Of a DNA stretch of 64,000 nucleotides, positions 14,702-56,295 are shown one piece after another. The notes under the pieces were generated by a model. That model searched no databases. It was not told the origin of the DNA and saw only the letters and a program-made list of their open reading frames with translations. The first letter of the stretch is position 1, and each line of letters starts with the position of its first letter. The stretch is from Minisyncoccota bacterium (GTDB taxonomy: Bacteria; Patescibacteriota; Minisyncoccia; Phycocordibacterales; SBAW01): the NCBI GenBank assembly GCA_035546615.1, contig DASZWM010000006.1, positions 1 to 64,000 on the forward strand. The letters are read 5' to 3'. A program made the translations under genes and the position numbers.

Positions 14702-15937
14702 TTATACCAGCCAGCCGGTCTCCTTGGCGCGCAGCGTGTCCCAGGTCGCGCGCGCGAGCCAGAGCGGCGCAACCAGCCCGAAGAGCGCGAAGTACGTGAC
14801 GAGGGAGGTTGCGGAAATCCGGCTCCCCGCGATGCGGCTGCCGACCACGACCGCCACAAGCGTCAGGCCGGTCACCGCGATAACGAGGAAGGAGAGCATG
14901 CTGGTATCGAGGTAGAACCACTCAAAGTGAGGCAGATGGAATTGGGGCGGGATGCCGGTTACCCAGAAATCGATGCCGCGGGCCAGGAGCATCTTCACGA
15001 TGCCGTACAGGCCCCATGCGGCGGTGTAGAGGCCGCCGACGAACGCCAGCAGGCCGAAGGGGAGCGCGAACAGGCCAAGGTGGCCGAATCGCGGATTGAA
15101 GTACATATAGTAATAGTCCCGCGAGTTCTCAAGGAAGCCGCGCGACCACCGCACGCGCTGGCGCACGAGCCCGCCTATCGTGGTCGGGACCTTCGTTTCT
15201 ACCACCGCGGTGTGCGCGTTGGCGATTACCATGCGGTTGGCATGCAGGCGGAAGGCCATTTCCATGTCCTCAGTGTGATGCGCATGGCGGAAGAGGCCTA
15301 TCTTCTCAAATACGTCGCGGCGGTAGAAGGAGAACGGCCCCGGCAGGACGTTTATGGCCGAAAGGTTGTCGAACATCTTGCGGTAGAACACGCCGAATAT
15401 ATATTCCACCGACTGCATGCGCTCCAGGAGCGTTCGCGGCTCAAATACTTTCATGGCCGGCGTCACCGCCATGATGTTGGGGTCGCTCTCGAACTTCTTT
15501 ACCATCTCGATAAGCGCGTCGGGCGCCACGAACGAGTCGGCATCAAGGCATCCGACCAGCTCGCTGTCGGTATGCTTGAGGCCGAAGTTGAGCGCAGAGA
15601 ATTTGCTGCCCTCGTTCTCTTTGGCGAGTATGCGCACCTGCGCGTGCCCGGCGAATTCTTGCGCGGCCGCCAGCGTGCCGTCGGTCGAGCCGTCGTCGAT
15701 TATCAAAATAGAGAGCCGGTCGGCGGGGTACTCAAGCGCGAGGAGCGAATGCATGGTCGCTCCCAAAGTCTTTGCCTTGTTCCAGCAGGGCACCAAAATA
15801 GCCACGCTCGGGTAGCGTGCGGGCATCGCGGCGGTCTTCGCGTGCGGCCGCTTTTCGAGGAAGGAAATCAGCAGAAATACCTCGAAATACAGCCCCATGA
15901 ACAAGCATATATACATGCCTATAGCCCCTACTTCCAT
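14702..15937 (-). CDS. Processive family-2 glycosyltransferase (NodC/PgaC/cellulose-synthase-like), integral membrane
   Basis: DDGSTDGT, DAD, and QRVRWSRG (Q-x-x-RW) motifs; multiple TM segments. Confidence 0.8.
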   Translation of the reverse strand: MEVGAIGMYICLFMGLYFEVFLLISFLEKRPHAKTAAMPARYPSVAILVPCWNKAKTLGATMHSLLALEYPADRLSILIIDDGSTDGTLAAAQEFAGHAQVRILAKENEGSKFSALNFGLKHTDSELVGCLDADSFVAPDALIEMVKKFESDPNIMAVTPAMKVFEPRTLLERMQSVEYIFGVFYRKMFDNLSAINVLPGPFSFYRRDVFEKIGLFRHAHHTEDMEMAFRLHANRMVIANAHTAVVETKVPTTIGGLVRQRVRWSRGFLENSRDYYYMYFNPRFGHLGLFALPFGLLAFVGGLYTAAWGLYGIVKMLLARGIDFWVTGIPPQFHLPHFEWFYLDTSMLSFLVIAVTGLTLVAVVVGSRIAGSRISATSLVTYFALFGLVAPLWLARATWDTLRAKETGWLV

Positions 15938-15965
15938 GATGGAAAGTATAGCATTTTAGGGCTTT

Positions 15966-16727
15966 TTGAGCGATACTTTACGAATCCGTATGTCAGACAC
16001 GCCTACCGGCCACATCCATCCGATTTCAAGCCTTATCCGCGAGGCAAACCGCATATTTGCGGGCATGGGATTCTCCTTCGCCGAGGGCCCGCTCCTGGAG
16101 ACAGAATGGTACAACTTCGACGCGCTCAACGTGCCGAAGGACCATCCCGCGCGCGACATGCAGGACACCTTTTTTATAAAGGACGCGCCGGGCCACGTAT
16201 TGCGCACGCACACCTCGCCTGTCCAGGTGCGCTATATGGAAGCGCAGGCGAAGAAGGGCATCATGCCGCCGTATCGCATCATCGTGCCGGGCCGCGCGTT
16301 CCGCAACGAGGCGACCGACATGACGCACGAGGCCGAGTTCTTCCAGATAGAAGGGCTGGCGGTCGGGCCTGACATCACGCTTGGCAATCTCAAGGGCACG
16401 CTCGAGCAATTCTTCAAGGAATTATTCAAAGGCTCGGTCGAAGTGCGCTTCCGCCCGAGCTTCTTCCCGTTCGTCGAGCCGGGAGTCGAGGTTGATATGC
16501 GCCTGAGCGGCAATGACGTGCCCGAAAAGCTCAAGGATAAGTGGATAGAGATAATGGGCGCCGGCATGGTGCATCCGAATGTGCTAAAGAGCGCTGGGGT
16601 AGATCCGGTTCAGTACCGCGGTTTCGCCTTCGGCATGGGCCTCGACCGCCTCGCGATGCTCCGGTGGGGCATCGACGATATCCGCCTCATGCACTCCGCC
16701 GACCTGCGCTTCATCAATCAATTCTAG
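15966..16727 (+). CDS. pheS: Phenylalanyl-tRNA synthetase alpha subunit, catalytic core only (N-terminal coiled-coil arm absent)
   Basis: Class II core motifs (DHPARDMQDTFF; FRNEATDMTHEAEFFQIEG; GMGLDRLAML); 253 aa. Confidence 0.88.
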   Translation: MSDTLRIRMSDTPTGHIHPISSLIREANRIFAGMGFSFAEGPLLETEWYNFDALNVPKDHPARDMQDTFFIKDAPGHVLRTHTSPVQVRYMEAQAKKGIMPPYRIIVPGRAFRNEATDMTHEAEFFQIEGLAVGPDITLGNLKGTLEQFFKELFKGSVEVRFRPSFFPFVEPGVEVDMRLSGNDVPEKLKDKWIEIMGAGMVHPNVLKSAGVDPVQYRGFAFGMGLDRLAMLRWGIDDIRLMHSADLRFINQF

Positions 16728-16729
16728 AT

Positions 16730-17029
16730 ATGTGGAATATTGATTGGAGCTTAATAGGAATCGTAGGTCTTGCAGTAGCCACTATGTCTATTGCTATTAA
16801 GATTATCGGAGTACCTGACCAGATAAAAAGGAATTATCGTCGCAAATCAACGGAAGGAGTTTCTCTTTTATTCTATGTAATGTCTTTTGCCACTTATTTT
16901 CTCTGGGCATTATATGGATTTTTAAAAGATGATTGGGTTGTGTTTCTCGCTCAAGGTTCTTTAGGCTGTGTCACAAGTGGCATCATTCTTTGGCAATTTT
17001 TTGTGTATAGAAAAAACAAAAAGATATGA
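16730..17029 (+). CDS. SemiSWEET / PQ-loop family small transporter (AT-rich insert in pheST operon)
   Basis: 99 aa, 3 TM; architecture and motifs parallel to SemiSWEETs (…IGVPDQIKRNYRRKSTEGVSLLFYVM…LWALYGFLKDD…); stop overlaps pheT start (ATGA). Confidence 0.6.
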   Translation: MWNIDWSLIGIVGLAVATMSIAIKIIGVPDQIKRNYRRKSTEGVSLLFYVMSFATYFLWALYGFLKDDWVVFLAQGSLGCVTSGIILWQFFVYRKNKKI

Positions 17030-18849
17030 AAATCTCGCGCCGCTGGATTCAAAACTTTTTCAATGACGAACTGTCGAACACGCAGGCGCTTGCCGACGCG
17101 CTTACGTTCCACGCCTTCGAGATAGACGGCATCGAGCCGTATTCTGGACTTACGAAGTCCAGAATTTTGGACGAGATACTGGACGTTAAGGTTACCCCTA
17201 ACCGCGGGCACGATTGCCTGTGTCACCGCGGCATCGCAAAAGAACTTTCAGCCATTCTTAAGCTTCCGCTTAAGCAAGACCCGCTCGGCAAGAAGCCGGA
17301 GCTTGTCCCAGCTACCGATGCCGTTTCCGTAACGCTTGAGGACCCGGCGCTTAGCCCGCGCTACATCGCCGGATACATGAAGAACGTGAAGGTCGGTCCG
17401 TCGCCTGACTGGCTTGTAGAGGCCCTTGAAGCCATGGGCCAGCGCTCAATCAACAATGTCGTTGATGCGACGAACATGGTGATGTTCAATCTCGGCCAGC
17501 CCTTGCACGCCTTTGACGCGGGCAAGCTCGCGCAGAAAGACGGCAAATATGGCATCGTCGTCCGCAGGGCGCGTGCGGGAGAGAAGATCCTCGCGCTCGA
17601 CCAGAAAGAGTATGTCCTTCAGGATTCCATGCTCGTTATTGCCGACGGCAACAAGGACGAAGCTATCGGCATCGCCGGCGTGAAGGGCGGCACGCCGGCG
17701 GGCATTACCGAAGCGACGACCGACATCATCATCGAGTCCGCCAACTTCAACGGCGTGTCCGTCCGTAAGACCGCCCAGGCGCTGAAGCTGCGCACCGACG
17801 CGTCCAGCCGCTTTGAGCAGGGCCTCAGCCCCGAGCTGTGCGCATACGGCATGCAGCAGGTCGTTGATCTCATAAAAACAATCGCAAGCGGGGAACTGGT
17901 CGGCTTTGCCGATGTATATCCGGCGCCCCAAGGGCCCGCCTATGCTGCAGTATCGGTAGAGAAGGTCAATCAGATACTGGGTACTCAGCTCACCGGCACG
18001 GAGGTGGCGGACGCTTTTGCGCGCCTCGGCTTCGCATACAAAGAAGAGAATGGAGTATTCCAGGTCACGGTCCCGTTCGAGCGCCTCGACATAACGATCC
18101 CGGAAGATTTGGTCGAGGAGGTCGGCCGCATCGTCGGCTACGACAAGGTACCCGCTGTGCCTCTGCCTCCCATGCCCCCCTCTTCCCAAGCAAGCGCGAG
18201 CTTCTCGGCGACAGAGCGCGTCCGCGCGGATCTCATAAAGCAGGGATATTCGGAAGTTCTTACGTCCGTATTTTCAGACAAGGGCGAGCGCGCGGTGTTA
18301 AATAAAGTGGACAGCGTAAAGCCGTATTTGCGCAGCAATCTCACCGATGGACTTACCGAAGCTCTGAAAAAGAACATTCCGAACAAAGACCTGCTTGGAC
18401 TTAAGGAAGTAAAGCTGTTCGAGATAGGAACTGTCTGGAAAGGTGATAAGGAGGAAGTAGTGGTCGGCACCGTAAGCGAAAAGAAGCAGGCCGAAGAAAA
18501 AGCGCTGAGCGAATATGCGGCTGATTCGGCTCCTGTACAAGACCTGCCGCTTTCGCAAACGGAGCGGTACCAGTCATTCTCCAAGTATCCCTACATCGTG
18601 CGCGATATCGCTATGTGGACTCCTGCACGTACGACGCCCGAATCGGTTCAGGAACTTATACAGGCTGAGGCGGGGGAGTTGTGCACAAAAGTATCGCTCT
18701 TCGACCAGTTCCAAAAAGGAGAAAAGACTTCGCTCGCGTTCCGCCTAATATTCCAATCATTTGAAAAGACGCTCACGGAAGGGGATGCAAACCAGGCGAT
18801 GGAAAAGGTAGCGGCAAAACTGAAAGAAAAAGGCTTCGAGATCAGGTAA
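17026..18849 (+). CDS. pheT: Phenylalanyl-tRNA synthetase beta subunit (short, 607 aa)
   Basis: N-terminal tRNA-binding (VTPNRGHDCL), B5 domain, C-terminal FSKYPYIVRDIAMW anticodon-binding region. Confidence 0.88.
   Translation: MKISRRWIQNFFNDELSNTQALADALTFHAFEIDGIEPYSGLTKSRILDEILDVKVTPNRGHDCLCHRGIAKELSAILKLPLKQDPLGKKPELVPATDAVSVTLEDPALSPRYIAGYMKNVKVGPSPDWLVEALEAMGQRSINNVVDATNMVMFNLGQPLHAFDAGKLAQKDGKYGIVVRRARAGEKILALDQKEYVLQDSMLVIADGNKDEAIGIAGVKGGTPAGITEATTDIIIESANFNGVSVRKTAQALKLRTDASSRFEQGLSPELCAYGMQQVVDLIKTIASGELVGFADVYPAPQGPAYAAVSVEKVNQILGTQLTGTEVADAFARLGFAYKEENGVFQVTVPFERLDITIPEDLVEEVGRIVGYDKVPAVPLPPMPPSSQASASFSATERVRADLIKQGYSEVLTSVFSDKGERAVLNKVDSVKPYLRSNLTDGLTEALKKNIPNKDLLGLKEVKLFEIGTVWKGDKEEVVVGTVSEKKQAEEKALSEYAADSAPVQDLPLSQTERYQSFSKYPYIVRDIAMWTPARTTPESVQELIQAEAGELCTKVSLFDQFQKGEKTSLAFRLIFQSFEKTLTEGDANQAMEKVAAKLKEKGFEIR
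17141..17165. repeat. 25-nt perfect palindrome ATTCTGGACTTACGAAGTCCAGAAT inside pheT (codes YSGLTKSRI)
   Basis: Read directly; same core recurs at 43719 and 27626. Confidence 0.9.
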
Positions 18850-18858
18850 AAAGAAATC

Positions 18859-18884
18859 AGGCCGGCCCCGAAGGGGCCGGCCTG
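18859..18884. terminator. Bidirectional hairpin CAGGCCGGCCCC-gaag-GGGGCCGGCCTG between convergent pheT and a minus-strand gene
   Basis: Perfect 12-bp GC stem; a second 8-bp hairpin follows. Confidence 0.55.
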
Positions 18885-18907
18885 AACACTTGCCTGAACG
18901 CGGGTGT

Positions 18908-19492
18908 TCAGTTCGGCGAGACGAAGCTAGTGAACTCGCCCTTTTCGTTGACGTCCCAGATCTTCGCCGGGACGGCAAAGAGACTGAAGGCTGAGGGAGC
19001 GATCCACAGGATGGGATCCTTCCCGACGAACGAGAGCAGGAACTTCGCGTCCGGACGCTCCGCATGGACATTATCCAGGAGGCGTACAGCCTGTTCGGGA
19101 ACATAGAAGACCTTGTCGCGCTGCCCTGGCTGCCGCCACACCGTCATGTAGCCGGACAGATTGTGCGAAAGCGGGCGCGTGCGCCACGCGTTCCCGCGGA
19201 ACAGTGCAAAGATCAGCATGAGGTAGAGCAGGATGCCGCAGATGATGAGCGAGTTATCCTGCACGTCCGGCCCAAGTGCCAACAACGCCAGCGCAGGGAA
19301 CAGGCTAACTGCCAGCGCACGCCGGCCGAAAGCGAATGTAAGCGCCTTCAGGATCGGGTTGTCGACCTGCGCCGCCATGTGCCGGCGGACCTTCCAGAAA
19401 CTCCACGAGTCGGCCCCCGCGGCGATGAGCGCCGCGCGGAACGAAGTCGGAGCGGCAAAAACCCGCCCAAGCTCAAGGACATATGAACTCAT
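18908..19492 (-). CDS. Hypothetical membrane protein (2 TM + soluble domain)
   Basis: ORF with hairpin terminators downstream (18859..18884). Confidence 0.45.
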   Translation of the reverse strand: MSSYVLELGRVFAAPTSFRAALIAAGADSWSFWKVRRHMAAQVDNPILKALTFAFGRRALAVSLFPALALLALGPDVQDNSLIICGILLYLMLIFALFRGNAWRTRPLSHNLSGYMTVWRQPGQRDKVFYVPEQAVRLLDNVHAERPDAKFLLSFVGKDPILWIAPSAFSLFAVPAKIWDVNEKGEFTSFVSPN

Positions 19493-19679
19493 TGCAGGAC
19501 CTCCAAAAGTTCCATTGCCGGTTCGAACTCGCCCGCCTAAAAAAGAGCGTCGAACCTGCCCGCAACCTTACCACATTCTCCTTATTTATCAAGCTATTTT
19601 CACTGTCCACACCCTTTCAATCCGGTCTTGAATTTGCTATAATAAGGAGGTAAAGCCTTGGCGGGCTTTCTTCAATTCT

Positions 19680-21737
19680 GTGGCTGAAAACAAGGACAAA
19701 ACCAAGGCAAAAAAATCCTCCTACGGCGCCGATTCCATCACCGTCCTCGAAGGGCTCGAGGCGGTCCGCCGCCGCCCGGGCATGTACATCGGCACCACCG
19801 GCCCGGAAGGCCTCCACCATCTCATCTGGGAAGTCTTCGACAACTCGCGCGACGAGGCCATGGGCGGCTTCGCCAATGATGTCGAGGTGGCGCTCCTGCC
19901 CGGCAACATCGTGCGCGTGGCGGATAACGGCCGCGGCATTCCGGTCGAGGTCCACAAGCAGACCAAGGTCTCGACCCTTGAGACCGTCATGACAATTCTC
20001 CATGCCGGCGGCAAGTTCGGCGGCGACGGCTACAAGGTGTCCGGCGGCCTCCACGGCGTGGGCGTTTCGGTAGTGAACGCGCTTTCCACCTGGCTGCGCG
20101 CCGAGGTCCACCGCGACGGCGGCGCATACGTGCAGGACTACGCCATCGGCAAGAAAAAGGCCGCGGTAAAGAAGGTAGGCCCCAGCAAGCTCACCGGCAC
20201 CGTCATTTCTTTCACTCCCGACGCGAGCATTTTCGAGAAGACCGATTTCGATTTCGACAAAATAGTGGCCCACCTGCGCGAGCAGGCATACCTCGTTAAG
20301 GGGATGCGCATCACGATAATCGACGCGCGCGAATCCGGCCTCAAGTTCACCGACGCCGGGAAAGAACTGTACCTGCGCGACTACCTCACGCAGAGCCCGT
20401 CGCAGACGTTCTACTTCGAAGGCGGCCTGCGCTCGCTCATCTCCTTCTACAACCGCTACCAAAAACCGGTCCACAAGAATATTTTCTACATCGAGAAAGA
20501 AGTCGATAACGTCGCGGTCGAGGTTGCGCTCCAGTACGCCGACGACATATCCTCGCGCGTCTTCGCCTTCGCCAACAACATCTTCAACAACGAGGGCGGC
20601 ACGCACGTGACCGGCTTCCGCACCGCGCTTACCCGCACGCTCAATACGTACGCGCGCAAGGGCAATTCGGCTAAAGACAGCGACGAGAACTTCACCGGCG
20701 ACGACGTGCTCGAGGGCCTGACCGCCGTGGTATCCATCAAGATGCGCGAGATACAGTTCGAGGGCCAGACCAAGGGCAAGCTCGGCTCCGTCGAGGCGCG
20801 CAGCGCCGTGGAGACCGTGTTCGGCGAGGCGTTCAGCCTTTTCCTCGAGGAGAATCCCGACGATGCGCGCGCGATAATCTCAAAATCCCTCCTCGCGCTC
20901 AAGGCCCGCAAGGCCGCGAAGGCCGCCAAGGACTCCGTCATGCGCAAGGGCGCGCTTGAGGGCATGTCGCTTCCGGGCAAGCTGGCCGACTGCCAGACCA
21001 AGGACGCTTCCGAATCGGAGCTCTTCGTTGTGGAGGGCGACTCGGCAGGCGGCTCGGCCAAGATGGGCCGCGACCGCCGCACGCAGGCAATACTCCCGCT
21101 GCGCGGGAAAATTCTCAACGTCGAGCGCGCGCGTTTGGACAAGATGATCGCCTCCGAGCAGATACGCAACCTCGTGGTGGCGCTCGGCACAGCAATCGGC
21201 GACGTGTTCGACATCTCGAAGCTCCGCTATCACAAGATAATTATCGCGACCGATGCCGACGTGGACGGCGCGCACATCCGCACGCTTCTCCTTACGCTCA
21301 TGTACCGCCATTTCCGCTCCATCGTGGACGGCGGCTACGTCTACATCGCACAGCCGCCGCTCTATAAGATAAAGCGCGGCAAGGAGGTCATGTACGCGTA
21401 TTCCGACGACGAGAAGGCGAAGCTCTTGGGCAAAGACGCCGCCAACGTGCAGGAAGACGGCGCCGAAGAAGGGGATGAGCCTGCGGAAGAAGCCGAAGAG
21501 GAAACAGCGAAGAAATCCGGCAAAATCCGCATCCAGCGCTACAAGGGTCTTGGCGAAATGAACCCGGAGGAGCTCTGGGAAACGACCATGAATCCGGCCA
21601 ACCGCATTCTCAAGCAGGTAACGGTGGAGGACGCGCAGGATGCCGACCACGTGTTCGACATCCTCATGGGCGAGGACGTTCCCTCCCGCAAGAGCTTCAT
21701 TCAAAGCAACGCGAAGCTCGCGAATCTCGACATCTAA
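19680..21737 (+). CDS. gyrB: DNA gyrase subunit B
   Basis: GHKL ATPase motifs (EVFDNSRDEA, GLHGVG), Toprim EGDSAGG, C-terminal QRYKGLGEMN; non-ATG (GTG) start likely. Confidence 0.93.
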   Translation: MAENKDKTKAKKSSYGADSITVLEGLEAVRRRPGMYIGTTGPEGLHHLIWEVFDNSRDEAMGGFANDVEVALLPGNIVRVADNGRGIPVEVHKQTKVSTLETVMTILHAGGKFGGDGYKVSGGLHGVGVSVVNALSTWLRAEVHRDGGAYVQDYAIGKKKAAVKKVGPSKLTGTVISFTPDASIFEKTDFDFDKIVAHLREQAYLVKGMRITIIDARESGLKFTDAGKELYLRDYLTQSPSQTFYFEGGLRSLISFYNRYQKPVHKNIFYIEKEVDNVAVEVALQYADDISSRVFAFANNIFNNEGGTHVTGFRTALTRTLNTYARKGNSAKDSDENFTGDDVLEGLTAVVSIKMREIQFEGQTKGKLGSVEARSAVETVFGEAFSLFLEENPDDARAIISKSLLALKARKAAKAAKDSVMRKGALEGMSLPGKLADCQTKDASESELFVVEGDSAGGSAKMGRDRRTQAILPLRGKILNVERARLDKMIASEQIRNLVVALGTAIGDVFDISKLRYHKIIIATDADVDGAHIRTLLLTLMYRHFRSIVDGGYVYIAQPPLYKIKRGKEVMYAYSDDEKAKLLGKDAANVQEDGAEEGDEPAEEAEEETAKKSGKIRIQRYKGLGEMNPEELWETTMNPANRILKQVTVEDAQDADHVFDILMGEDVPSRKSFIQSNAKLANLDI

Positions 21738-25796: not shown

Positions 25797-26069
25797 ATGA
25801 ATCGGAAGATAATCGGACTATTCTTTCTCGCTGCGATGACCGCCTCGGCCACAGCCGGCCAGAGCGTTCCTCCGCCAACCGGGCAAGAGCTCGAGGTGTT
25901 CCGGAACCGCGCTCAGCTGGTTCTCGGACACCACCTCGACGACTACTACTTCATGGGGCATAACGCGGGGCCGCCGCCGCGTCCCGGCTGCGTTCTCGAC
26001 AAGCGGGTGAAGGATCCGCATGTTCCGAACCTCTACCATGCGGGCTGGCGTTGCCCGAAACAGCACTGA
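25797..26069 (+). CDS. Small secreted hypothetical protein
   Basis: Signal peptide; followed by a 31-nt perfect palindrome. Confidence 0.35.
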   Translation: MNRKIIGLFFLAAMTASATAGQSVPPPTGQELEVFRNRAQLVLGHHLDDYYFMGHNAGPPPRPGCVLDKRVKDPHVPNLYHAGWRCPKQH

Positions 26070-26091
26070 CGTTCTTCGTTACTCTTTGTGC

Positions 26092-26122
26092 GCAGAGCGA
26101 TCGATATGATCGATCGCTCTGC
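26092..26122. promoter_or_regulatory. 31-nt perfect palindrome GCAGAGCGATCGAT-atg-ATCGATCGCTCTGC
   Basis: Read directly; between small secreted ORF and the repeat-protein gene; not followed by a clean T-run. Confidence 0.4.
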
Positions 26123-26232
26123 CACAAAATTTTTTCGCTATTTTCTGATTACAAATCTCTGTACGAGGTTTGTAGCCAGACTCTCGCGAAGGGAGTCGAG
26201 ATTATTACTAGTTTGATTTAGAAGAAAGTATT

Positions 26233-27531
26233 ATGAACAGCAATATTATAAACATAGGTCGTAAGATAAGCGTTGCTCTTATAGCGCTTATAGTTCTCGT
26301 GTTGCCTTTCGCTTCGGTGCAGGCAGCTGACTACTCTGACTATGATTATGTCGGGACCTCGTATTATGGTTCTGACTCTTCTAGCGATTACGTCGGGACT
26401 TCCTATTATGATTCCGGTTCTTCAAATAGTGGGAGCGATTACGTAGGAACGTCTTACTATACTCCTGATACTTCCAATGACTATGATTACGTTGGAACTT
26501 CGTACTATGAAGATAACTCTTCTGACTATGATTATGTCGGAACCTCCTATTATGGCTCTGGCTGCACCACGAACTGTGGCGGCGGTGGAGGTGGCGGCGG
26601 GGGCGGCGGATGCCGTTCTAACTGCACCCCTCCTCCTCCGAAGCCGGCCCCGGTTTGCGACCTCTCGGTCAGCCCTTCGCGCGTAGATTACGGCGATTCC
26701 GTAACTATCTCCTGGACCACGTCCAACGCCATCAGCGCCTTCCTCGCCGGTTTCGGCACGGTGTCCACTAACGGCTCCCGCACCAGCGGCGCTATCTATG
26801 GCACCAAGACCTACACTCTTACCGCGACCGCAAGCGGCGGCCGCACGGTAACCTGCTCCAAGACCGTTACAGTCGAGCGCGAGCATGAGCACACGCCCGA
26901 TCTCGAGTGCAAGCTTAAGGCTTCCGACACGAGCATCGAGCGCGGAGACTCGGTCCGCATCACCTGGTCTAGCGACGGCGCTGACTACGGCTACATCACT
27001 CCGGATATCGGTGATGTCGATGAAAGCGGTTCCGACACGGTAGAACCTCGCTCTGATACGACTTACAAGGGTACCTTCTACAACGACGACGGCGACAAGG
27101 TTACCTGCTCGGTCAAGGTAAACGTTGACCGCGAGTACAATCCGCCGGTCTACGAGAATCCGACTCCGTACATTAACCTCTCCGCTGTTCCGTACACCGG
27201 CCTTGACCTCGGTCCTGTCGGTACGGTTCTCTACTGGGCGTTCCTCATCGCATGGTGCCTCGTTGCCGCATACCTTATCGCGGTCAAGCGCGTCCACATG
27301 AGCGTGTACCGCTGGTACAAGAAGGCGCTCTTCGGCGAGGAGGTGCACTTCGCGCCGGCGCAGGAAGTCTCCTTCGCAGGGTTCTCCCACGCTGATGTCG
27401 CAAAGCTCGCAGAGATGCTTCGCGGCGCAGTCGCTCCCTCGCACGCTTCGGCACCTGTTGCTGCAGCTCCCGCAGGCGATGCGATAGACCCGTTCATCCT
27501 CTCGCAGATCCATCGCACTCCGCGCTCCTAA
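26233..27531 (+). CDS. Surface repeat protein: 5x DYVGTSYY repeats, poly-Gly/Cys spacer, two Ig-like C...C domains, TM, cytoplasmic tail
   Basis: Signal peptide; repeats D-Y-(D-Y)-V-G-T-S-Y-Y separated by S/D-rich spacers; CGGGGGGGGGGGGC; PPPPKP; two ~70-aa Cys-bounded beta-rich modules; VLYWAFLIAWCLVAAYLIAV TM. 5' third is AT-rich. Confidence 0.5.
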   Translation: MNSNIINIGRKISVALIALIVLVLPFASVQAADYSDYDYVGTSYYGSDSSSDYVGTSYYDSGSSNSGSDYVGTSYYTPDTSNDYDYVGTSYYEDNSSDYDYVGTSYYGSGCTTNCGGGGGGGGGGGCRSNCTPPPPKPAPVCDLSVSPSRVDYGDSVTISWTTSNAISAFLAGFGTVSTNGSRTSGAIYGTKTYTLTATASGGRTVTCSKTVTVEREHEHTPDLECKLKASDTSIERGDSVRITWSSDGADYGYITPDIGDVDESGSDTVEPRSDTTYKGTFYNDDGDKVTCSVKVNVDREYNPPVYENPTPYINLSAVPYTGLDLGPVGTVLYWAFLIAWCLVAAYLIAVKRVHMSVYRWYKKALFGEEVHFAPAQEVSFAGFSHADVAKLAEMLRGAVAPSHASAPVAAAPAGDAIDPFILSQIHRTPRS

Positions 27532-27625: not shown

Positions 27626-27652
27626 TATTCTGGACTTCGTAAGTCCAGAATA
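27626..27652. repeat. Palindromic element copy TATTCTGGACTTCGTAAGTCCAGAATA (opposite centre orientation), abutting thrS stop codon
   Basis: 27-nt palindrome; centre CGT instead of ACG; intergenic between convergent genes. Confidence 0.9.
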
Positions 27653-42235: not shown

Positions 42236-42622
42236 ATGGCAGCAGAGAGAGATCAGGAGTTTTTGGAATTTGTCGTAAAAGGTCTTGTCGAGAATCCGGA
42301 CGCGGTTAAGATAACTCGCGCCGTAGACGAAATGGGCGTTCTTTTGACGCTCGACCTCCATCCGGATGACATGGGCAAGGTTATCGGCCGCTCGGGCAAT
42401 ACCGCCAAGGCAATACGCACGCTTCTTCGCGTCGTTGGCATGAAGCACAATGCCCGCGTGAACCTTAAGATAAACGAACCGGCAGGAGGGCTTCGCGATC
42501 CTGCTATGAGCGCTCCGAGCGGCGGCAGCGCTGCCCAGGGCTGGGACGGCAGCCACGAGGCTCCCGCAACCCCTGCGATGAAGTCGGTGGACGAGGCGAT
42601 GGACGAGCTCTCAAAGTTCTAA
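42236..42622 (+). CDS. KH-domain RNA-binding protein (YlqC-like) with C-terminal extension
   Basis: GKVIGRSGNTAKAIRTLLRVVG KH motif; classic position downstream of rpsP. Confidence 0.75.
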   Translation: MAAERDQEFLEFVVKGLVENPDAVKITRAVDEMGVLLTLDLHPDDMGKVIGRSGNTAKAIRTLLRVVGMKHNARVNLKINEPAGGLRDPAMSAPSGGSAAQGWDGSHEAPATPAMKSVDEAMDELSKF

Positions 42623-42660: not shown

Positions 42661-43500
42661 TTGCTTTTCCCGCCCTCCTTTATACTGTGGAGTATGTATC
42701 CTCCTGTTTCTGACCTGCTCGCAGAGCTCTCTTTATTTCCCGGAAGGGAAGACGGCTTGCGGAAAATTAAAAGGTATAGCAATGAGAAAGTAGCTTTTTA
42801 CCGCTCTTCTGATTTTTCTCATAGCAAGAGAGTGGCGTGGCTTGTATATAGTCTCATCCCATTATTATCAGAGGTAGATAAGACTTTTGATATAGGGCGC
42901 GCTGTGGCTATGGCGCTCGTGCACGACGATGCTGAACTGATAACGGGTGATCATCAAGCTGGTAATAAAAGCAAAATGACCAAAGAGCAGCTTGCTGCAA
43001 TTGCTGACGAAGAACGTGAAGCGATTGCCGCTTTGGCAAAGAGATATCCAAAAACTCTCGGCGGATATGTCTATCAGGACCTAGTACAAGATCTCGCTGA
43101 TCTAAAGAATTCTGAAGCTCATTTTGTTAAGTACTTTGATCGTTTTGATGCTTTGGGGGAGACTTACCATGAACTCTTTGCAGGGAATGTGGTTTGGACG
43201 CAAAACGTAGTTAATGAGTGGGGCATCATTCCCACACCTTTTATGTATTACTACGATAGGCTGCCGCCCATGGTTGAGAAGTATCCGATCCTGACTGCTT
43301 TAAAAGGAAAACATGTATTCTTCGATGTCCCTGAAGCCAGAGAATGGGAATCATTTGTCCTGACTCGTCAGCCTCATACAAAGGATTCAATACTTGCGTC
43401 TACTGGTCATAGGCAATATGATGCCTGGCGCTCTGTTGTTATTGATTCTGCAGATCAAGAAGAAATCGCAAATCTCTACTCTCAACAAGAATACCTATGA
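42661..43500 (+). CDS. HD-domain phosphohydrolase (YfbR/5'-deoxynucleotidase-like), AT-rich insert
   Basis: H...HD motif (ALVHDDAELITGDH); gene visibly AT-rich relative to flanks; stop overlaps trmD start (ATGA). Confidence 0.65.
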   Translation: MLFPPSFILWSMYPPVSDLLAELSLFPGREDGLRKIKRYSNEKVAFYRSSDFSHSKRVAWLVYSLIPLLSEVDKTFDIGRAVAMALVHDDAELITGDHQAGNKSKMTKEQLAAIADEEREAIAALAKRYPKTLGGYVYQDLVQDLADLKNSEAHFVKYFDRFDALGETYHELFAGNVVWTQNVVNEWGIIPTPFMYYYDRLPPMVEKYPILTALKGKHVFFDVPEAREWESFVLTRQPHTKDSILASTGHRQYDAWRSVVIDSADQEEIANLYSQQEYL

Positions 43501-44153
43501 ATTTCCATGTCGTAACGCTTTTTCCGGAAGTTATCGAGGCCTATACGAACGCTTCGATACTGGGCCGTGCCCAGAAAGAGAAGAAGTTTTCCGTTAAGAC
43601 CTACCAGCTGCGCGATTTCGTCAGCAATAAATGGGGCAAGGTAGACGAGCGCCCATACGGCGGCGGCCCGGGCATGGTTATCCAGGCCGAGCCGGTCATC
43701 AGGGCAGTCCAGAAAATATCTGGACTTACGAAGTCCAGAATTCGGCCGAAGGTCATTATTACTGCGGCAGGCGGCAAGCCTTTGACCAACGCGTATGCCA
43801 AAGCGCTTTTGAAGCAAAAGGACGTCATAATCGTTTGCGGCAGGTACGAAGGCATCGACGCCCGGGCAAAAAAAGTGCTCAAGGCCGAAGAAGTCTCCGT
43901 TGGGCCGTACATTCTGACCGGGGGCGAGGTTCCGGCCTTGGCAATCATTGATGCGACCGCTCGGCAGATAAAGGGCGTTTTGGGCAAGTTCGAGTCCCTC
44001 GAGGAGTCCCGGGTCGCAAGCCACGAGATATACACCCGCCCCGAGGTCCTGAAAGCAAAAGGAAAGAACTACGCGGTCCCGAAGGTCCTCCTCTCCGGCC
44101 ATCATGCAAAGATGGACCAGTGGAAAGAAAAGAAACGCAGCAAACCCCTATAA
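43497..44153 (+). CDS. trmD: tRNA (guanine37-N1)-methyltransferase
   Basis: MNFHVVTLFPEV...; RPYGGGPGMV; CGRYEGIDAR SPOUT-knot motifs. Confidence 0.9.
   Translation: MNFHVVTLFPEVIEAYTNASILGRAQKEKKFSVKTYQLRDFVSNKWGKVDERPYGGGPGMVIQAEPVIRAVQKISGLTKSRIRPKVIITAAGGKPLTNAYAKALLKQKDVIIVCGRYEGIDARAKKVLKAEEVSVGPYILTGGEVPALAIIDATARQIKGVLGKFESLEESRVASHEIYTRPEVLKAKGKNYAVPKVLLSGHHAKMDQWKEKKRSKPL
43719..43739. repeat. Palindromic element copy TCTGGACTTACGAAGTCCAGA inside trmD (codes ISGLTKSRI)
   Basis: Identical 21-nt core and identical reading frame as the pheT copy. Confidence 0.9.
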
Positions 44154-44315: not shown

Positions 44316-51293
<6,978 letters not shown>

Positions 51294-51343
51294 GAAGAAA
51301 GCCACTAGCCACTAGGGTATAGCCAATAGCAAATAAAAAAGCG

Positions 51344-51376
51344 AACGGGCGCGGAGTTTTTAATTCCGCGCCCGTT
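51344..51376. terminator. Bidirectional terminator AACGGGCGCGGA-gttttta-TCCGCGCCCGTT between rpoBC and a minus-strand small ORF
   Basis: 12-bp stem; A-run upstream, T-run on the minus-strand side. Confidence 0.55.
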
Positions 51377-51390
51377 TGGCGTACATGAGG

Positions 51391-51633
51391 CTACGTCCGG
51401 GTGCTCTTGATGAGTTTTTCGACCTTCTCGAAGATACCCAGGATGAGCAGAGGAATGGCAATGCTCAGAGAAATGGTCCCCCAGACAAACGCGTCCATCG
51501 CCTGCTCTGGGGGCACAGTCATGAACATCGCCCGTGCGACTGTAATCCCTATTCCCACCGCCCCACAAATGATATATATCATGGCCAAATTCTCCTTCTG
51601 TTGGCCGACTATATATGCATAGTGTACACCCAA
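51391..51633 (-). CDS. Small hypothetical membrane protein
   Basis: 2 TM; hairpin + T-run terminator downstream on minus strand (51344..51376). Confidence 0.35.
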   Translation of the reverse strand: MGVHYAYIVGQQKENLAMIYIICGAVGIGITVARAMFMTVPPEQAMDAFVWGTISLSIAIPLLILGIFEKVEKLIKSTRT

Positions 51634-51678
51634 AGATGTATTTTGTCAAGTGGTATACTAAAGCGGTAAACTCTATAT

Positions 51679-54703: not shown

Positions 54704-54988
54704 TTAGTCGGTAAAGTTCTCTTCTTCGAAGTCGTCCATCTCTCTGCCCATTTGCTTAAGCCCTTCTTCGAAAAAATTGTGGGCTCTCGCGATTTCTGGG
54801 CTTAGCAGGACACTATTCTTCTCGGAAAACGCTTTGAATTTCCGAAGAAGAAAAGGTACAGGTTCCATAGAAGGATTCCACTCTATTGTTCCGGGTAGGA
54901 ACAGGTGAGTGAGGACTACCGTGCCATCTGGTTTGGTTGCCCGCGTAAAATCCTCTTTTTTGAGGACATAGTTTTCAACTTCTCCCAC
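54704..54988 (-). CDS. Hypothetical protein in AT-rich segment
   Basis: ORF; region 54640..55110 visibly AT-rich. Confidence 0.3.
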   Translation of the reverse strand: MGEVENYVLKKEDFTRATKPDGTVVLTHLFLPGTIEWNPSMEPVPFLLRKFKAFSEKNSVLLSPEIARAHNFFEEGLKQMGREMDDFEEENFTD

Positions 54989-55047
54989 GAAATATCTCCT
55001 TTGGTTGCGGACGAAAAAGTGTGTCCGCTTTCTTTATATCATGATAC

Positions 55048-56295
55048 TTAAATCATGTCAAATTTTTTATTAGGAAGTGCCTGATACAAATCCCAAATAA
55101 CGGCTGCAACATTATGCGGCTCGCCTTCAAACGGCAGATGATGATTGTCGAAGAACGGCCGGCCGTTTGTCTCTATGACGCCGCACTTGGGCGTTTCCTT
55201 CCACGAGCGGCTGATATCGCTCGTGATAAAGTCGATGCCGACGATGGGCGCATGCAAGACCCGCGCTATCTCCTCGAACAGCGCCTTATTGTCGGGATGC
55301 ACTTTTTCCGTCACGTCGGTGGTGGTGCCGCCGAGCGCCCAGTTTATTTTAGGATGCAGATAGACAGCACGGCCTTGTTCGGGAATGCTCTGCAAAGTCA
55401 ATCCTTGAAGCTTGAGTTCCTGCTCGCCTAGTGCGGTTAGTTTGATATGCGAGAAGTACGGGCCCTGGCGCTTGGGATGCGTGTTCGCCTGCGCAATAAG
55501 TTCCTCTATAGTATGCTCGCCGTCGCCCACCACGCGCGGCGGGTCGCGACGGATGGTAGCGACAAGTTTTCCATCCACCAGCGTCGGCCGATAGACGGAG
55601 CCTTCGAGTTCTTCCTCTATGACGACCAGCGGAGAAACCTCTTTAGCTATTTTGAATCCGCGCTCAAGCGCAGTTTCGTCGCTGATATGGAGCGTGGTGT
55701 GCCGCGAGGCCGAGCCTTCGGCGGGCTTTGCTATGACCGTGCCGTTGATTTCCTTGAATATGCGGTTTGCCTTGGCGAGCGAGAATGCGGACTCGCCGCG
55801 GGCAACCGGCAGGCCGAGCGCCCGGAACTTCTTCTTCATGACGGTCTTGTTGTCTATCCACCAGACCGGCTGCTCCATCCGCGCGGGGAACGGGATGCTT
55901 TCGAATCCGATCCGCCGGCCGCCCGGAAACGTTGCCAGGAAGCTTGCGGTAGGGAGGCCGAGCAGGCGGAACTCCCGCATACGGATGCCGCGTTTTTTCG
56001 CTTCTTCCCAAAGGACCAGATCAAGCAGGAGCGTTTTATCATCCGGCTCTTCAAGCAGTTCCGCCAAACCAAGACGCGCTAAGCCCTCAGCCACGAGACC
56101 CTTGCTGTCCCGCTTCGGCAAAAGCCTGGAGGCGCCGTCCGTTATCCGCCCCATCAGCGCCGAAAAAGGCGTAGCGGCAAGGCCGATAAGAAGCGTGAAG
56201 TACTGGATACGATGATGTATCGCATCGCCGCCGCATTCGATGCAGGGTTTTGCGGCGGGAAGTGCGATGCGCATATTCCTAAAGCATACGGGCAT
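55048..56295 (-). CDS. ATP-grasp domain protein resembling the N-terminal ATP-grasp module of cyanophycin synthetase (no Mur-ligase part)
   Basis: …GIRMREFRLLGLPTASFL…KTVMKKKFRALGLPVARG…VIAKPAEGSASRHTTLHIS…PLVVIEEELEGSVYRPTLVDGKLVAT…VVGDGEHTIEELI parallels the CphA N-terminal ATP-grasp layout. True start may be internal. Confidence 0.55.
   Translation of the reverse strand: MPVCFRNMRIALPAAKPCIECGGDAIHHRIQYFTLLIGLAATPFSALMGRITDGASRLLPKRDSKGLVAEGLARLGLAELLEEPDDKTLLLDLVLWEEAKKRGIRMREFRLLGLPTASFLATFPGGRRIGFESIPFPARMEQPVWWIDNKTVMKKKFRALGLPVARGESAFSLAKANRIFKEINGTVIAKPAEGSASRHTTLHISDETALERGFKIAKEVSPLVVIEEELEGSVYRPTLVDGKLVATIRRDPPRVVGDGEHTIEELIAQANTHPKRQGPYFSHIKLTALGEQELKLQGLTLQSIPEQGRAVYLHPKINWALGGTTTDVTEKVHPDNKALFEEIARVLHAPIVGIDFITSDISRSWKETPKCGVIETNGRPFFDNHHLPFEGEPHNVAAVIWDLYQALPNKKFDMI

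What the first reader, a model, noticed from the sequence alone, without database searches (positions are those of the whole stretch)
16730..17029. AT-rich SemiSWEET-like transporter gene wedged between pheS and pheT with ATGA coupling
A 99-aa, 3-TM PQ-loop/SemiSWEET-like ORF sits between pheS and pheT. Its base composition is conspicuously AT-rich (by eye ~40% GC against ~65% flanks). Its stop overlaps the pheT start codon. pheS-pheT adjacency is one of the most conserved gene pairs in bacteria, so this is a foreign insertion into a core operon that has become translationally coupled to an essential gene.
Basis: partly seen in the sequence, partly recalled or inferred. Interest (0 to 1): 0.7.

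Follow-up and report, generated by a model that had tools for sequence, protein, structure and literature searches.

The report
Transporter gene wedged inside pheS–pheT operon
A tiny, AT-rich SemiSWEET-type transporter gene sits exactly between the two genes of the essential phenylalanyl-tRNA synthetase in a candidate-phyla (Paceibacterota) genome, and relatives show that this junction repeatedly holds foreign "cargo" genes that depend on the operon for expression.

Summary
ORF 16730..17029 (+) encodes 99 aa. It starts 2 nt after the pheS stop, and its TGA overlaps the pheT ATG (ATGA). It has 35.3% GC and GC3 of 0.30, against GC3 of 0.78 (pheS) and 0.67 (pheT). It is the lowest-GC 300-bp stretch of the 64-kb window. 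It scores above Pfam thresholds for MtN3_slv and PQ-loop, and it models as three helices.

The genome is a Paceibacterota MAG. Its closest available relatives, L003 and L007, have pheS and pheT directly adjacent. None of 76 evaluable related species carries the SemiSWEET gene at this junction.

This is nevertheless not a one-off event:
- Of 13 distinct contexts of SemiSWEET homologues (52–100% identity), 11 are in the same pheS|pheT junction, in scattered Paceibacterota lineages.
- Three of those share the junction with other genes (PNPOx, PemK, DUF4202, Imm44).
- 15 of 76 related species hold unrelated small genes there.
- In 14 of 23 cargo-bearing junctions the cargo stop forms an ATGA overlap with pheT.

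My reading is that this is a laterally acquired, promoterless transporter gene in a recurrent cargo hotspot inside the operon. It would be expressed by read-through transcription and translational coupling, which I infer from the geometry but did not test. The substrate is unknown. The pocket Asn of characterised SemiSWEETs is Gln or His in this family. I rate it a new variant of known kinds, of moderate interest.

The parts
15966..16727 (+). pheS, the alpha subunit of phenylalanyl-tRNA synthetase. It is a short form. The ATG at 15990 is the likelier start, giving about 245 aa as in relatives.
   Evidence: Pfam tRNA-synt_2d at 315 bits and TIGR00468 pheS at 299.7 bits, above its cut-off of 237. 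GC3 is 0.78. Homologues are 243-249 aa.
16725..16732 (+). Upstream junction: pheS stop TAG, a 2-nt spacer (AT), then the SemiSWEET ATG. There is no Shine-Dalgarno-like motif in the 25 nt upstream.
   Evidence: Read directly from the sequence. The same pattern of 'stop + 1-3 nt + ATG' is seen at empty and at occupied junctions in relatives.
16730..17029 (+). SemiSWEET/PQ-loop-type membrane protein gene with three transmembrane helices, 99 aa. This is the AT-rich insert.
   Evidence: Pfam MtN3_slv and PQ-loop above their cut-offs. PDB sequence hits to EcSemiSWEET 4x5m (E 4.5e-6), AtSWEET13 and LbSemiSWEET. AF2 mean pLDDT 92.9 with three helices. dN/dS against the L001 copy is about 0.13. GC is 35.3%.
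16814..16822 (+). 'PDQ' variant of the PQ-loop hinge motif (P29-D30-Q31), followed by R38-K-S-T-E-G43 at 16841-16858.
   Evidence: P29 and Q31 are invariant and D30 is present in 112 of 118 family members. P29 aligns with the hinge residue Pro21 of EcSemiSWEET (PMC4309421).
16904..16906 (+). Trp59 codon, equivalent to the pocket residue Trp50 of EcSemiSWEET.
   Evidence: HMMER alignment to 4x5m. Invariant in 118 of 118 family members.
16952..16954 (+). Gln75 codon, at the position of the sugar-binding Asn66 of EcSemiSWEET.
   Evidence: Alignment to 4x5m and 4qnc. The family has Gln in 87 and His in 31 of 118 members, and never Asn. The N66A mutation lowers sucrose uptake in EcSemiSWEET (PMC4309421).
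17003..17029 (+). A-rich 3' end of the insert (AGAAAAAACAAAAAGAT) and the ATGA stop/start overlap with pheT (17026-17029).
   Evidence: Read from the sequence. No Shine-Dalgarno-like motif is present. No promoter-like or plus-strand terminator-like site lies between pheS and the end of pheT.
17026..18849 (+). pheT, the beta subunit of phenylalanyl-tRNA synthetase. It is a short form of 607 aa.
   Evidence: Pfam B3_4, B5, tRNA_synthFbeta and FDX-ACB, and TIGR00472 at 448 bits, above its cut-off of 402. The first 60 codons have native GC3 of 0.68, and their nearest neighbours are the non-carriers L007 and L003.
18857..18885 (.). 13-bp GC-rich hairpin 8 nt after the pheT stop. It is the likely end of the transcription unit. 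Its T-run lies on the minus strand, so it also serves the convergent ORF.
   Evidence: Terminator-like scan and the sequence.

Best explanation
The 99-aa ORF is a genuine SemiSWEET/PQ-loop-family transporter subunit with three transmembrane helices, which presumably acts as a homodimer. It belongs to a subfamily common in Patescibacteria.

In this high-GC Paceibacterota lineage the gene was acquired laterally. The most likely donor is a lower-GC Paceibacterota bacterium. It landed in a recurrent cargo site, the few nucleotides between the pheS stop and the pheT start.

It has no promoter, Shine-Dalgarno motif or terminator of its own. I infer that it is transcribed from the pheS promoter as part of a pheS-SemiSWEET-pheT mRNA. 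I further infer that ribosomes terminating at the pheS stop re-initiate 2 nt downstream to translate it, and that ribosomes terminating at its TGA re-initiate on the overlapping pheT ATG. On this reading the essential beta subunit is now made through the cargo gene, and the transporter is made constitutively at housekeeping level.

Shown here: the family assignment, the anatomy, the compositional anomaly, the absence from the nearest relatives, the recurrence of the junction as a cargo site, and purifying selection.

Inferred: co-transcription, translational coupling, the direction and mechanism of transfer, and the transported substrate. The substrate is probably a small sugar, but the canonical pocket Asn is Gln here.
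For: Family assignment:
- Pfam MtN3_slv at 47.5 bits and PQ-loop at 38 bits.
- PDB sequence hits only to SemiSWEET and SWEET proteins at E of 1e-3 to 5e-6.
- AF2 model with three helices and mean pLDDT 92.9.
- Top Foldseek hits are SWEET2b, EcSemiSWEET and AtSWEET13.
- A profile search finds 485 relatives. Every source-named hit among the 120 listed comes from Patescibacteria.
- dN/dS is about 0.13.

Foreign origin:
- GC3 is 0.30 against 0.67-0.78 in the flanks, and this is the window's minimum.
- The boundary is sharp. The DNA alignment puts the insert exactly between the stop and the start, and the flanks are native in composition and in nearest neighbours.
- L003 and L007, which form the sister clade in the PheT tree and are also high-GC, lack the gene.
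- dS between the window and those relatives is at least 1. A neutral resident gene should therefore have ameliorated by now.
- The SemiSWEET and PheT identity matrices correlate only weakly (Spearman 0.34). For example, L097 and L098 are 74% identical in SemiSWEET but 39% in PheT.

Hotspot:
- 11 of 13 distinct SemiSWEET contexts lie in the pheS|pheT junction.
- 15 of 76 related species carry other cargo there: PNPOx, nucleoside deoxyribosyltransferase, PemK, IMPase, ACT, GIY-YIG, 23S_rRNA_IVP and unknowns.
- Cargo GC3 is generally below that of the flanks.

Coupling geometry:
- The upstream spacer is 2 nt and the downstream overlap is 4 nt.
- 14 of 23 cargo-bearing junctions end in ATGA. Against a chance rate of 1/3 this gives binomial p = 0.006, treating the loci as independent, which they are not fully.
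- There are no internal promoter-like or terminator-like sites.
Against: - Even the nearest available relatives are distant (dS at least 1). Loss in L003 and L007 instead of gain in this lineage is therefore not excluded by the distribution alone.
- SemiSWEET GC3 is at or below host GC3 in all 11 lineages examined, including low-GC hosts (L101: 0.16 vs 0.34-0.43; L100: 0.22 vs 0.30). Part of the AT-richness may therefore be a property of the gene, or of accessory genes in general, and not a mark of recent arrival.
- No near-identical donor copy was found. The best is 78% amino-acid identity, with pS of 0.61.
- No trace of co-transferred flanks, target-site duplication, integrase or IS element was found, so the insertion mechanism is unknown.
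- NCBIfam SemiSWEET subfamily models score below their trusted cut-offs (36 vs 80 bits).
- The pocket Asn is replaced, so sugar transport is not assured.
- No expression data exist.
Confidence: 0.7

Rival explanations
1. The gene is an ancient resident. On this reading pheS-SemiSWEET-pheT is ancestral to a large part of Paceibacterota and has been lost many times, including in L003 and L007. The gene's AT-richness would be maintained by selection. Possible reasons are unstructured mRNA that keeps re-initiation on pheT efficient, slow decoding for membrane insertion, or throttling of a transporter inside a well-expressed operon.
For: - The same gene order occurs down to 52% identity, in a Nomurabacteria genome.
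- SemiSWEET GC3 is at or below host GC3 in every lineage examined, even in hosts of 38-40% GC.
- The copies are old: pS between the window and L001 is 0.61 and dS is 1.3.
- L003 has a 21-nt AT-rich spacer (33% GC) where most relatives have 1-6 nt. This could be a deletion scar.
Against: - In L089, L091, L094 and L098 the gene has essentially host-like GC3, so there is no universal selection for AT-rich codons.
- The other, unrelated cargo genes in the junction are also AT-shifted. That fits a shared mobile gene pool better than gene-specific selection.
- The SemiSWEET and PheT trees disagree.
- Carriers are scattered singly among non-carriers in the PheT tree. This would require very many independent losses.
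Confidence: 0.2
2. There is a functional partnership with PheRS. On this reading the PQ-loop protein is not a sugar carrier but imports phenylalanine or a related aromatic compound for an auxotrophic symbiont. Its conserved position inside pheST would then reflect co-regulation of supply and charging.
For: - 11 of 13 contexts of this subfamily lie inside pheST.
- The PQ-loop superfamily includes amino-acid carriers such as cystinosin and PQLC2/Ypq (PMC4649669 abstract). 14 of 118 members weakly hit the TIGR00951 lysosomal cystine transporter model.
- The sugar-binding Asn is Gln or His in all 118 members.
- No carbohydrate-metabolism genes are adjacent.
Against: - The same junction carries functionally unrelated cargo, including toxins, PNPOx, a GIY-YIG nuclease and IMPase. 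Position alone is therefore weak evidence of a functional link.
- Most related species do without the gene.
- The best family and structure matches are to SWEET and SemiSWEET proteins, not to amino-acid carriers.
- Homologues outside pheST exist.
Confidence: 0.08
3. The insert is an assembly or binning artefact, that is, a chimeric join that brought a low-GC fragment into a high-GC contig.
For: The source is a metagenome-assembled genome, and the GC step is abrupt.
Against: - The fragment is exactly one intact ORF, positioned to the nucleotide between a stop and a start.
- The same architecture appears in at least ten independent assemblies from ENA, JGI, NCBI and Logan.
Confidence: 0.01

Closest known systems
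Bacterial SemiSWEET transporters (EcSemiSWEET 4X5M/4X5N, Leptospira biflexa 4QNC, Vibrio 4QND, Thermodesulfovibrio 4RNG; Pfam PF03083; TCDB 2.A.123)
   Same: - About 90-100 aa with three transmembrane helices.
- Hinge Pro in TM1 (P29, aligned with Pro21 of EcSemiSWEET).
- Pocket Trp (W59, aligned with Trp50).
- Pfam score above the gathering threshold.
- These are the top sequence and Foldseek matches.
   Different: - The motif is P-D-Q, not P-Q.
- The pocket Asn (Asn66) is Gln or His in all 118 relatives.
- NCBIfam SemiSWEET subfamily models score below their cut-offs.
- The loop motif N-Y-x-R-K-S-T-E-G-x-S looks, from memory, more like eukaryotic PQ-loop proteins.
- Published SemiSWEET gene contexts are carbohydrate operons (PMC5972207), not an aminoacyl-tRNA synthetase operon.
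Eukaryotic PQ-loop / LCT family (cystinosin, PQLC2/Ypq1-3; Pfam PF04193)
   Same: - PF04193 scores 38 bits, above its cut-off of 22.
- There are weak PDB hits to cystinosin.
- It shares the triple-helix-bundle building block.
   Different: Those proteins have seven transmembrane helices and two PQ-loop repeats in one chain. This protein is a single unit of three helices.
Horizontal-gene-transfer hotspots flanked by core genes (Oliveira et al. 2017, PMC5635113)
   Same: - One chromosomal interval, bounded by conserved core genes, holds different accessory genes in related genomes.
- Gene turnover there is rapid.
- The cargo is AT-shifted.
- No mobile-element genes are present.
   Different: - The interval lies inside an operon, between the genes for the two subunits of one essential enzyme.
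- It is 1-6 nt wide when empty.
- In the GTDB sample cargo is always co-oriented, and it usually abuts or overlaps pheT.
- Cargo is promoterless and usually ends in an ATGA overlap.
Integron gene-cassette arrays
   Same: Small promoterless ORFs sit in one orientation and are expressed from an upstream promoter. There are one to four per site, and the same cargo families recur in different combinations and orders: SemiSWEET+PNPOx, PemK+SemiSWEET, SemiSWEET+DUF4202+PemK+Imm44, PNPOx+NDT, IMPase+PemK.
   Different: - There is no room for attC sites. Most gene-to-gene spacers run from -4 to +3 nt.
- No integrase lies within about 3-4 kb.
- No flanking repeats were found.
Translationally coupled gene pairs with ATGA or TAATG overlaps (for example in trp and ribosomal-protein operons; established knowledge)
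   Same: There is a 4-nt stop/start overlap and no Shine-Dalgarno motif upstream of the downstream gene. In empty relatives pheS and pheT are themselves joined by 1-3 nt.
   Different: Here a foreign membrane-protein gene is the intermediary between two subunits that must be made about 1:1. Dependence of pheT translation on it is inferred, not measured.

Membership tests
SWEET/SemiSWEET (Pfam PF03083 MtN3_slv) | Profile HMM score above the curated gathering threshold | tested here: met
   47.5 bits against a cut-off of 23.7, covering residues 12-98 and model positions 3-87 of 87.
SWEET/SemiSWEET | A single bundle of three transmembrane helices of about 90-100 aa | tested here: met
   AF2 model with mean pLDDT 92.9 and helices at 6-38, 46-65 and 69-97.
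SWEET/SemiSWEET | Conserved hinge proline of the PQ-loop motif in TM1 | tested here: met
   P29 aligns with Pro21 of EcSemiSWEET and is invariant in 118 of 118 relatives. The motif reads P-D-Q, not P-Q. Pro21 is essential for transport, Gln22 less so (PMC4309421).
SWEET/SemiSWEET | Substrate pocket formed by Trp and Asn (Trp50 and Asn66 in EcSemiSWEET) | tested here: not met
   The Trp is present (W59, invariant). The Asn position is Gln75 here, and is Gln in 87 and His in 31 of 118 relatives, never Asn. Half of the feature is met.
SWEET/SemiSWEET | NCBIfam SemiSWEET subfamily model score above the trusted cut-off | tested here: not met
   SemiSWEET_2 scores 36 bits against a cut-off of 80 for the window protein. 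All 118 relatives hit the model, with a best E-value of only 1.2e-11.
SWEET/SemiSWEET | Fold matches solved SemiSWEET or SWEET structures | tested here: inconclusive
SWEET/SemiSWEET | Parallel homodimer that forms the translocation path, and sugar uniport | not testable with these tools
   No multimer prediction or transport assay is available.
PQ-loop / LCT family (PF04193) | Profile score above threshold, and a seven-helix architecture with two PQ-loop repeats | tested here: not met
   The profile score is met (38 bits against 22). The protein has only one repeat and three helices.
Core-gene-flanked HGT hotspot | The same interval between conserved core genes holds different accessory genes in related genomes | tested here: met
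   15 of 76 related species have other cargo. Eleven SemiSWEET contexts lie in the junction, and three of them hold further genes as well.
Core-gene-flanked HGT hotspot | Patchy distribution of the cargo relative to the host phylogeny | tested here: met
   The neighbour-joining tree of PheT shows carriers scattered among non-carriers. Cargo and host identity are discordant. The tree is distance-based only, and no reconciliation was done.
Integron cassette array | attC recombination sites between cassettes and an adjacent integrase gene | tested here: not met
   Most spacers run from -4 to +3 nt. No repeats flank the insert. No integrase is found among the neighbouring genes.
Translationally coupled gene pair | Stop/start overlap or a spacer of a few nt, with no independent ribosome-binding site | tested here: met
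   TAG-AT-ATG upstream and ATGA downstream. No GGAG, GAGG or AGGA motif occurs within 25 nt upstream of either start.
Translationally coupled gene pair | Downstream translation depends on upstream translation | not testable with these tools
   This needs reporter fusions or ribosome profiling.

The most novel reading that the evidence does not exclude
In Paceibacterota the pheS|pheT junction may be a dedicated cargo site inside an operon. Small promoterless genes, such as transporters, PemK toxins, Imm44, PNPOx and nucleoside deoxyribosyltransferase, would be captured there singly or in arrays. They would be expressed by read-through transcription and stop/start coupling, and they would be exchanged between lineages. 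A possible exchange route is short-homology recombination at the conserved pheS end (…AAT CAA TTY stop) and pheT start (ATG AAR ATY TC…). This would be an integron-like way to express new genes without an integrase or attC sites, in genomes with few promoters and regulators. A second low-GC gene in this window, an HD-domain gene wedged before trmD with an ATGA overlap, suggests the pattern is not limited to pheST.
Probability: 0.35. Interest if true: 0.65.

Novelty: new variant of a known kind. Interest (0 to 1): 0.5.

Why it matters
pheS-pheT is among the most conserved gene pairs in bacteria. The two products must be made in equal amounts for an essential enzyme. Finding that a whole clade of ultra-small, host-dependent bacteria repeatedly tolerates foreign genes exactly at that junction, and shares them between lineages, matters for three reasons:
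- It shows where and how streamlined genomes with few promoters can take up and express new functions.
- It gives a simple, searchable marker (the pheS-pheT distance) for tracking gene flow among uncultured Patescibacteria.
- It identifies a divergent SemiSWEET subfamily (PDQ motif, pocket Asn replaced by Gln or His) whose substrate is unknown. This could be a main nutrient-uptake route for these symbionts.

The gene itself is already annotated in NCBI as a SemiSWEET-family transporter, so the protein assignment is not new. In a few full-text searches I found no paper describing the junction phenomenon.

Tried and rejected
- **Exact-sequence look-up of the window protein.** It is not on record.
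- **Co-transfer of flanking pheS or pheT segments, as a signature of homologous recombination.** GC3 of the first 60 pheT codons is native (0.68). The nearest neighbours of the last 40-80 residues of PheS and the first 40-300 residues of PheT are the non-carriers L003 and L007, not other SemiSWEET carriers. There is no support at this resolution.
- **Target-site duplications or terminal repeats.** The only similarity between the two junctions is the start-codon context (G)ATATG, and empty sites show the same context. I rejected this as evidence of transposition.
- **Integron-like attC sites or an integrase.** There is no space for the sites and no integrase gene.
- **A phage vector.** No relative was found in IMG/VR viral contigs.
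- **Relative age of the SemiSWEET copies from dS.** pS between the window and L001 is 0.61 for SemiSWEET, against 0.71-0.74 for pheS and pheT. That is only about 1.8 standard errors lower on 94 codons, so it is not decisive.
- **Substitution direction from L001 versus L083.** They are the same strain with three differences, so this was uninformative.
- **Rfam.** Nothing lies in or near the operon.
- **Sigma-70 promoter scan.** There were no hits in 15700-19700. The scan may not suit this phylum.
- **Literature searches** for SemiSWEET with Patescibacteria or Parcubacteria, and for pheS/pheT insertions. Nothing relevant was found.
Full report
**1. The observation**

The window has an ORF at 16730..17029 (+) of 99 codons. 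It starts 2 nt after the pheS stop (TAG-AT-ATG). It ends in a TGA that overlaps the pheT start, giving ATGA at 17026-17029. pheS (15966 or 15990..16727) and pheT (17026..18849) are confirmed by Pfam and by NCBIfam equivalog models above their cut-offs.

The ORF has 35.3% GC and GC3 of 0.30. pheS has 59.1% GC (GC3 0.78), pheT has 55.7% (GC3 0.67) and gyrB has 61% (GC3 0.83). The mean of all 300-bp windows is 58.8% with sd 5.1%. The global minimum (34.7%) lies at 16736, inside this ORF. A rough codon-adaptation index places it lowest of 58 ORFs, at 0.37 against 0.64 ± 0.12.

**2. What the protein is**

- Pfam gives MtN3_slv (SWEET) at 47.5 bits over the whole length, and PQ-loop at 38 bits. Both are above their gathering scores.
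- A small profile finds EcSemiSWEET (4x5m, E 4.5e-6), AtSWEET13 and LbSemiSWEET among solved structures.
- AlphaFold2 with 118 homologues gives three long helices at mean pLDDT 92.9.
- Comparison with the copy in locus L001 gives dN 0.16 and dS 1.28, which indicates purifying selection.
- A profile search of 5.8 billion proteins gives 485 relatives. Every source-named hit among the 120 listed is from Patescibacteria: Parcubacteria, Nomurabacteria, Gottesmanbacteria and Roizmanbacteria. A filter-free HMMER search of 1.84 billion representatives gives 459 clusters.
- The identical protein is annotated in NCBI as a 'SemiSWEET family transporter' from a Candidatus Paceibacterota MAG.

Within the family, P29, Q31 and W59 are invariant (with K24, R38, S40, T41, G43, S45, G63, D68, G79, Q89 and Y93), and D30, N35, K39 and E42 are nearly invariant. 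The hinge motif reads P-D-Q.

The position that aligns with the sugar-binding Asn66 of EcSemiSWEET is Gln75 here. It is Gln or His in all 118 relatives. In EcSemiSWEET, Pro21 is the essential hinge, and Trp50 and Asn66 line the pocket. The N66A mutation lowers sucrose uptake (PMC4309421). NCBIfam SemiSWEET subfamily models hit every member, and the window protein scores below the trusted cut-off.

I therefore assign it to the SWEET/PQ-loop superfamily, as a divergent SemiSWEET subfamily with an altered pocket.

**3. Is it foreign here?**

A scan of one genome per GTDB species with the window's PheS returned 80 related loci of the Kaiserbacteria/Adlerbacteria type, with PheS 63-91% identical. 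None has a SemiSWEET homologue at the locus.

The closest relatives are L003 (PheS 91%, PheT 71%) and L007 (PheT 74%). They form the sister group in a PheT tree and are equally GC-rich. In them pheS and pheT are 21 nt and 3 nt apart. The DNA alignment places the insert exactly between the stop and the start codon.

The flanks are native in two respects. pheT codons 1-60 have GC3 of 0.68. The best matches of the last 40-160 PheS residues and the first 40-300 PheT residues are L003 and L007, not other carriers.

dS between the window and L003 or L007 is at least 1. A neutrally evolving gene present since that split should have moved most of the way toward the host GC3 of about 0.7, yet it is at 0.30. 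This supports acquisition after the split.

The caveat is that SemiSWEET GC3 is at or below host GC3 in all eleven lineages examined, even in hosts of 38-40% GC. Some of the AT shift is therefore a general property of this gene, or of accessory genes.

**4. The wider pattern**

The two closest homologues, P0003 and P0002 (78% and 74% identity by BLASTP), also lie between pheS and pheT. So do the following:
- L084, at 64% identity.
- P0006, at 69%.
- P0034, P0018 and P0024, at 62-64%. P0024 is in a host of 40% GC.
- P0013, as pheS-SemiSWEET-PNPOx-pheT.
- P0020, as pheS-SemiSWEET-DUF4202-PemK-Imm44-pheT.
- P0067, at 52% identity in a Nomurabacteria genome, as pheS-PemK-SemiSWEET-pheT.

Only two of 13 contexts are elsewhere: L085, next to metG, and a Gottesmanbacteria genome.

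Carriers are scattered singly in the PheT tree. SemiSWEET and PheT identities correlate weakly, with Spearman 0.34. L097 and L098 share 74% SemiSWEET identity but 39% PheT identity, and the window and L091 share 68% against 37%.

Independently, 15 of the 76 evaluable GTDB loci have other genes filling the junction:
- PNPOx-like, four times.
- Nucleoside-2-deoxyribosyltransferase-like, twice.
- IMPase with PemK.
- An ACT-domain protein, a GIY-YIG nuclease and a 23S_rRNA_IVP protein.
- Six proteins with no Pfam match.

All are on the pheST strand, and their GC3 is usually lower than that of the flanks.

The junctions have a fixed pattern. The pheS stop is followed by 1-3 nt and then an ATG. In 14 of 23 cargo-bearing loci the last cargo stop is the TGA contained in pheT's own ATG-AAA start. 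Against a chance rate of 1/3 the binomial p is 0.006, although the loci are not independent.

No repeats, target duplications, integrase or IS genes were found. No viral contig carries a relative.

This matches the concept of a core-gene-flanked HGT hotspot (PMC5635113). The difference is that the hotspot lies inside an operon, and its cargo has to be co-oriented and promoterless.

**5. How it most likely works**

Shown:
- There is no promoter-like or plus-strand terminator-like signal between the pheS start and the end of pheT.
- No Shine-Dalgarno-like motif precedes either start.
- An A-rich tract precedes the pheT ATG.
- A 13-bp hairpin follows pheT.

Inferred:
- There is one pheS-SemiSWEET-pheT transcript.
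- Ribosomes finishing pheS re-initiate on the SemiSWEET ATG.
- Ribosomes finishing SemiSWEET re-initiate on pheT.
- PheT synthesis therefore passes through the cargo gene, and the transporter is made constitutively.
- By homology the protein would dimerise and act as a low-affinity uniporter.
- Sugar is the default guess for the substrate, but the change of the pocket Asn to Gln or His leaves it open.

**6. Rivals**

- An ancient resident held AT-rich by selection, about 0.2. This is weakened by host-like GC3 in four lineages, by the AT shift of unrelated cargo, and by the tree discordance.
- A functional link with PheRS, as a phenylalanine or aromatic-compound carrier, about 0.08. It is suggested by the strong positional association and the altered pocket. 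It is weakened by the unrelated cargo in the same junction.
- An assembly chimera, about 0.01. It is excluded in practice by the same architecture in at least ten independent assemblies.

**7. Novelty and verdict**

The protein is a member of a known superfamily and is already annotated as such. The arrangement is a new variant of known phenomena, namely HGT hotspots and translational coupling. I found no paper describing SemiSWEETs in Patescibacteria or insertions in pheST. A published SemiSWEET gene-context survey reports only carbohydrate operons (PMC5972207).

The corrections are that the event is one instance of a recurrent, clade-wide cargo site, and that the ATGA overlap is a built-in property of that site. 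I score interest at about 0.5.

Noticed in passing
window 17141-17165, 27627-27651, 43717-43741: A 25-nt palindrome (ATTCTGGACTT-ACG-AAGTCCAGAAT) occurs three times, with none expected by chance. It is absent from 99 related loci. Two copies lie in frame and in the same phase inside essential genes, pheT codons 39-47 and trmD codons 74-82. Both encode SGLTKSRI, and in PheT the copy sits in a length-variable loop. The flanks of the three copies are unrelated. It resembles a tiny genome-specific palindromic element of the REP or Rickettsia-RPE type. Both coding copies lie 112-217 nt downstream of a low-GC inserted gene.
   Followed up: partly
window 42661-43500: This is a second low-GC gene (43.8% GC, GC3 0.39). 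It encodes an HD-domain, YfbR-like 5'-deoxynucleotidase. It sits between a KhpA-type KH-domain gene (42236-42622) and trmD (43497-44153), where rimM usually lies in bacteria. Its stop overlaps the trmD start as ATGA. It may be another cargo gene wedged into a core operon. Relatives were not examined.
   Followed up: partly
L064, L015, L023, L031, L071, L006, L037, L045, L042, L044, L052, L047, L058, L036, L080 (pheS|pheT gaps; coordinates): Fifteen related species carry other small genes exactly between pheS and pheT. They are PNPOx-like, nucleoside deoxyribosyltransferase-like, IMPase with a PemK toxin, ACT, GIY-YIG, 23S_rRNA_IVP, and six proteins of 86-193 aa with no Pfam match.
   Followed up: yes
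L091 2779-4526; L101 2485-3279; L089 3001-3722: These are multi-gene arrays in the same junction: SemiSWEET-DUF4202-PemK-Imm44, PemK-SemiSWEET and SemiSWEET-PNPOx. A toxin (PemK) and an immunity-like gene (Imm44) therefore sit inside an aminoacyl-tRNA synthetase operon.
   Followed up: partly
L003 4763-4783: The closest relative without the insert has a 21-nt AT-rich spacer (GCTTCATAAATCGGTTTTACT, 33% GC in a 59% GC genome). Most relatives have 1-6 nt there. L068 (48 nt), L011 (31 nt) and L074 (20 nt) are similar. These could be scars of lost cargo.
   Followed up: no
window 15966-16727 and 17026-18849: The PheRS is minimal. PheS (about 245-253 aa) aligns only from position 62 of the TIGR00468 model. 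PheT (607 aa) aligns from position 158 of TIGR00472, so it lacks the usual N-terminal domains. Relatives are the same.
   Followed up: no
window 18850-19680: The pheT-gyrB interval is also variable among relatives. The window has a 194-aa minus-strand ORF (18908-19492) with no Pfam hit. L001 has two small minus-strand ORFs, L097 has a 230-aa one, and L094 and L089 have none.
   Followed up: no
window 25993-26567, 51305-51649, 54704-55160: These are further low-GC patches (minima of 39.7% and 40.7% GC) and low-CAI ORFs with no Pfam match, including the 5' end of a 432-aa ORF at 26233-27531.
   Followed up: no
window 44316-51293: A giant ORF of 2325 aa lies directly downstream of trmD. It was not analysed.
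   Followed up: no
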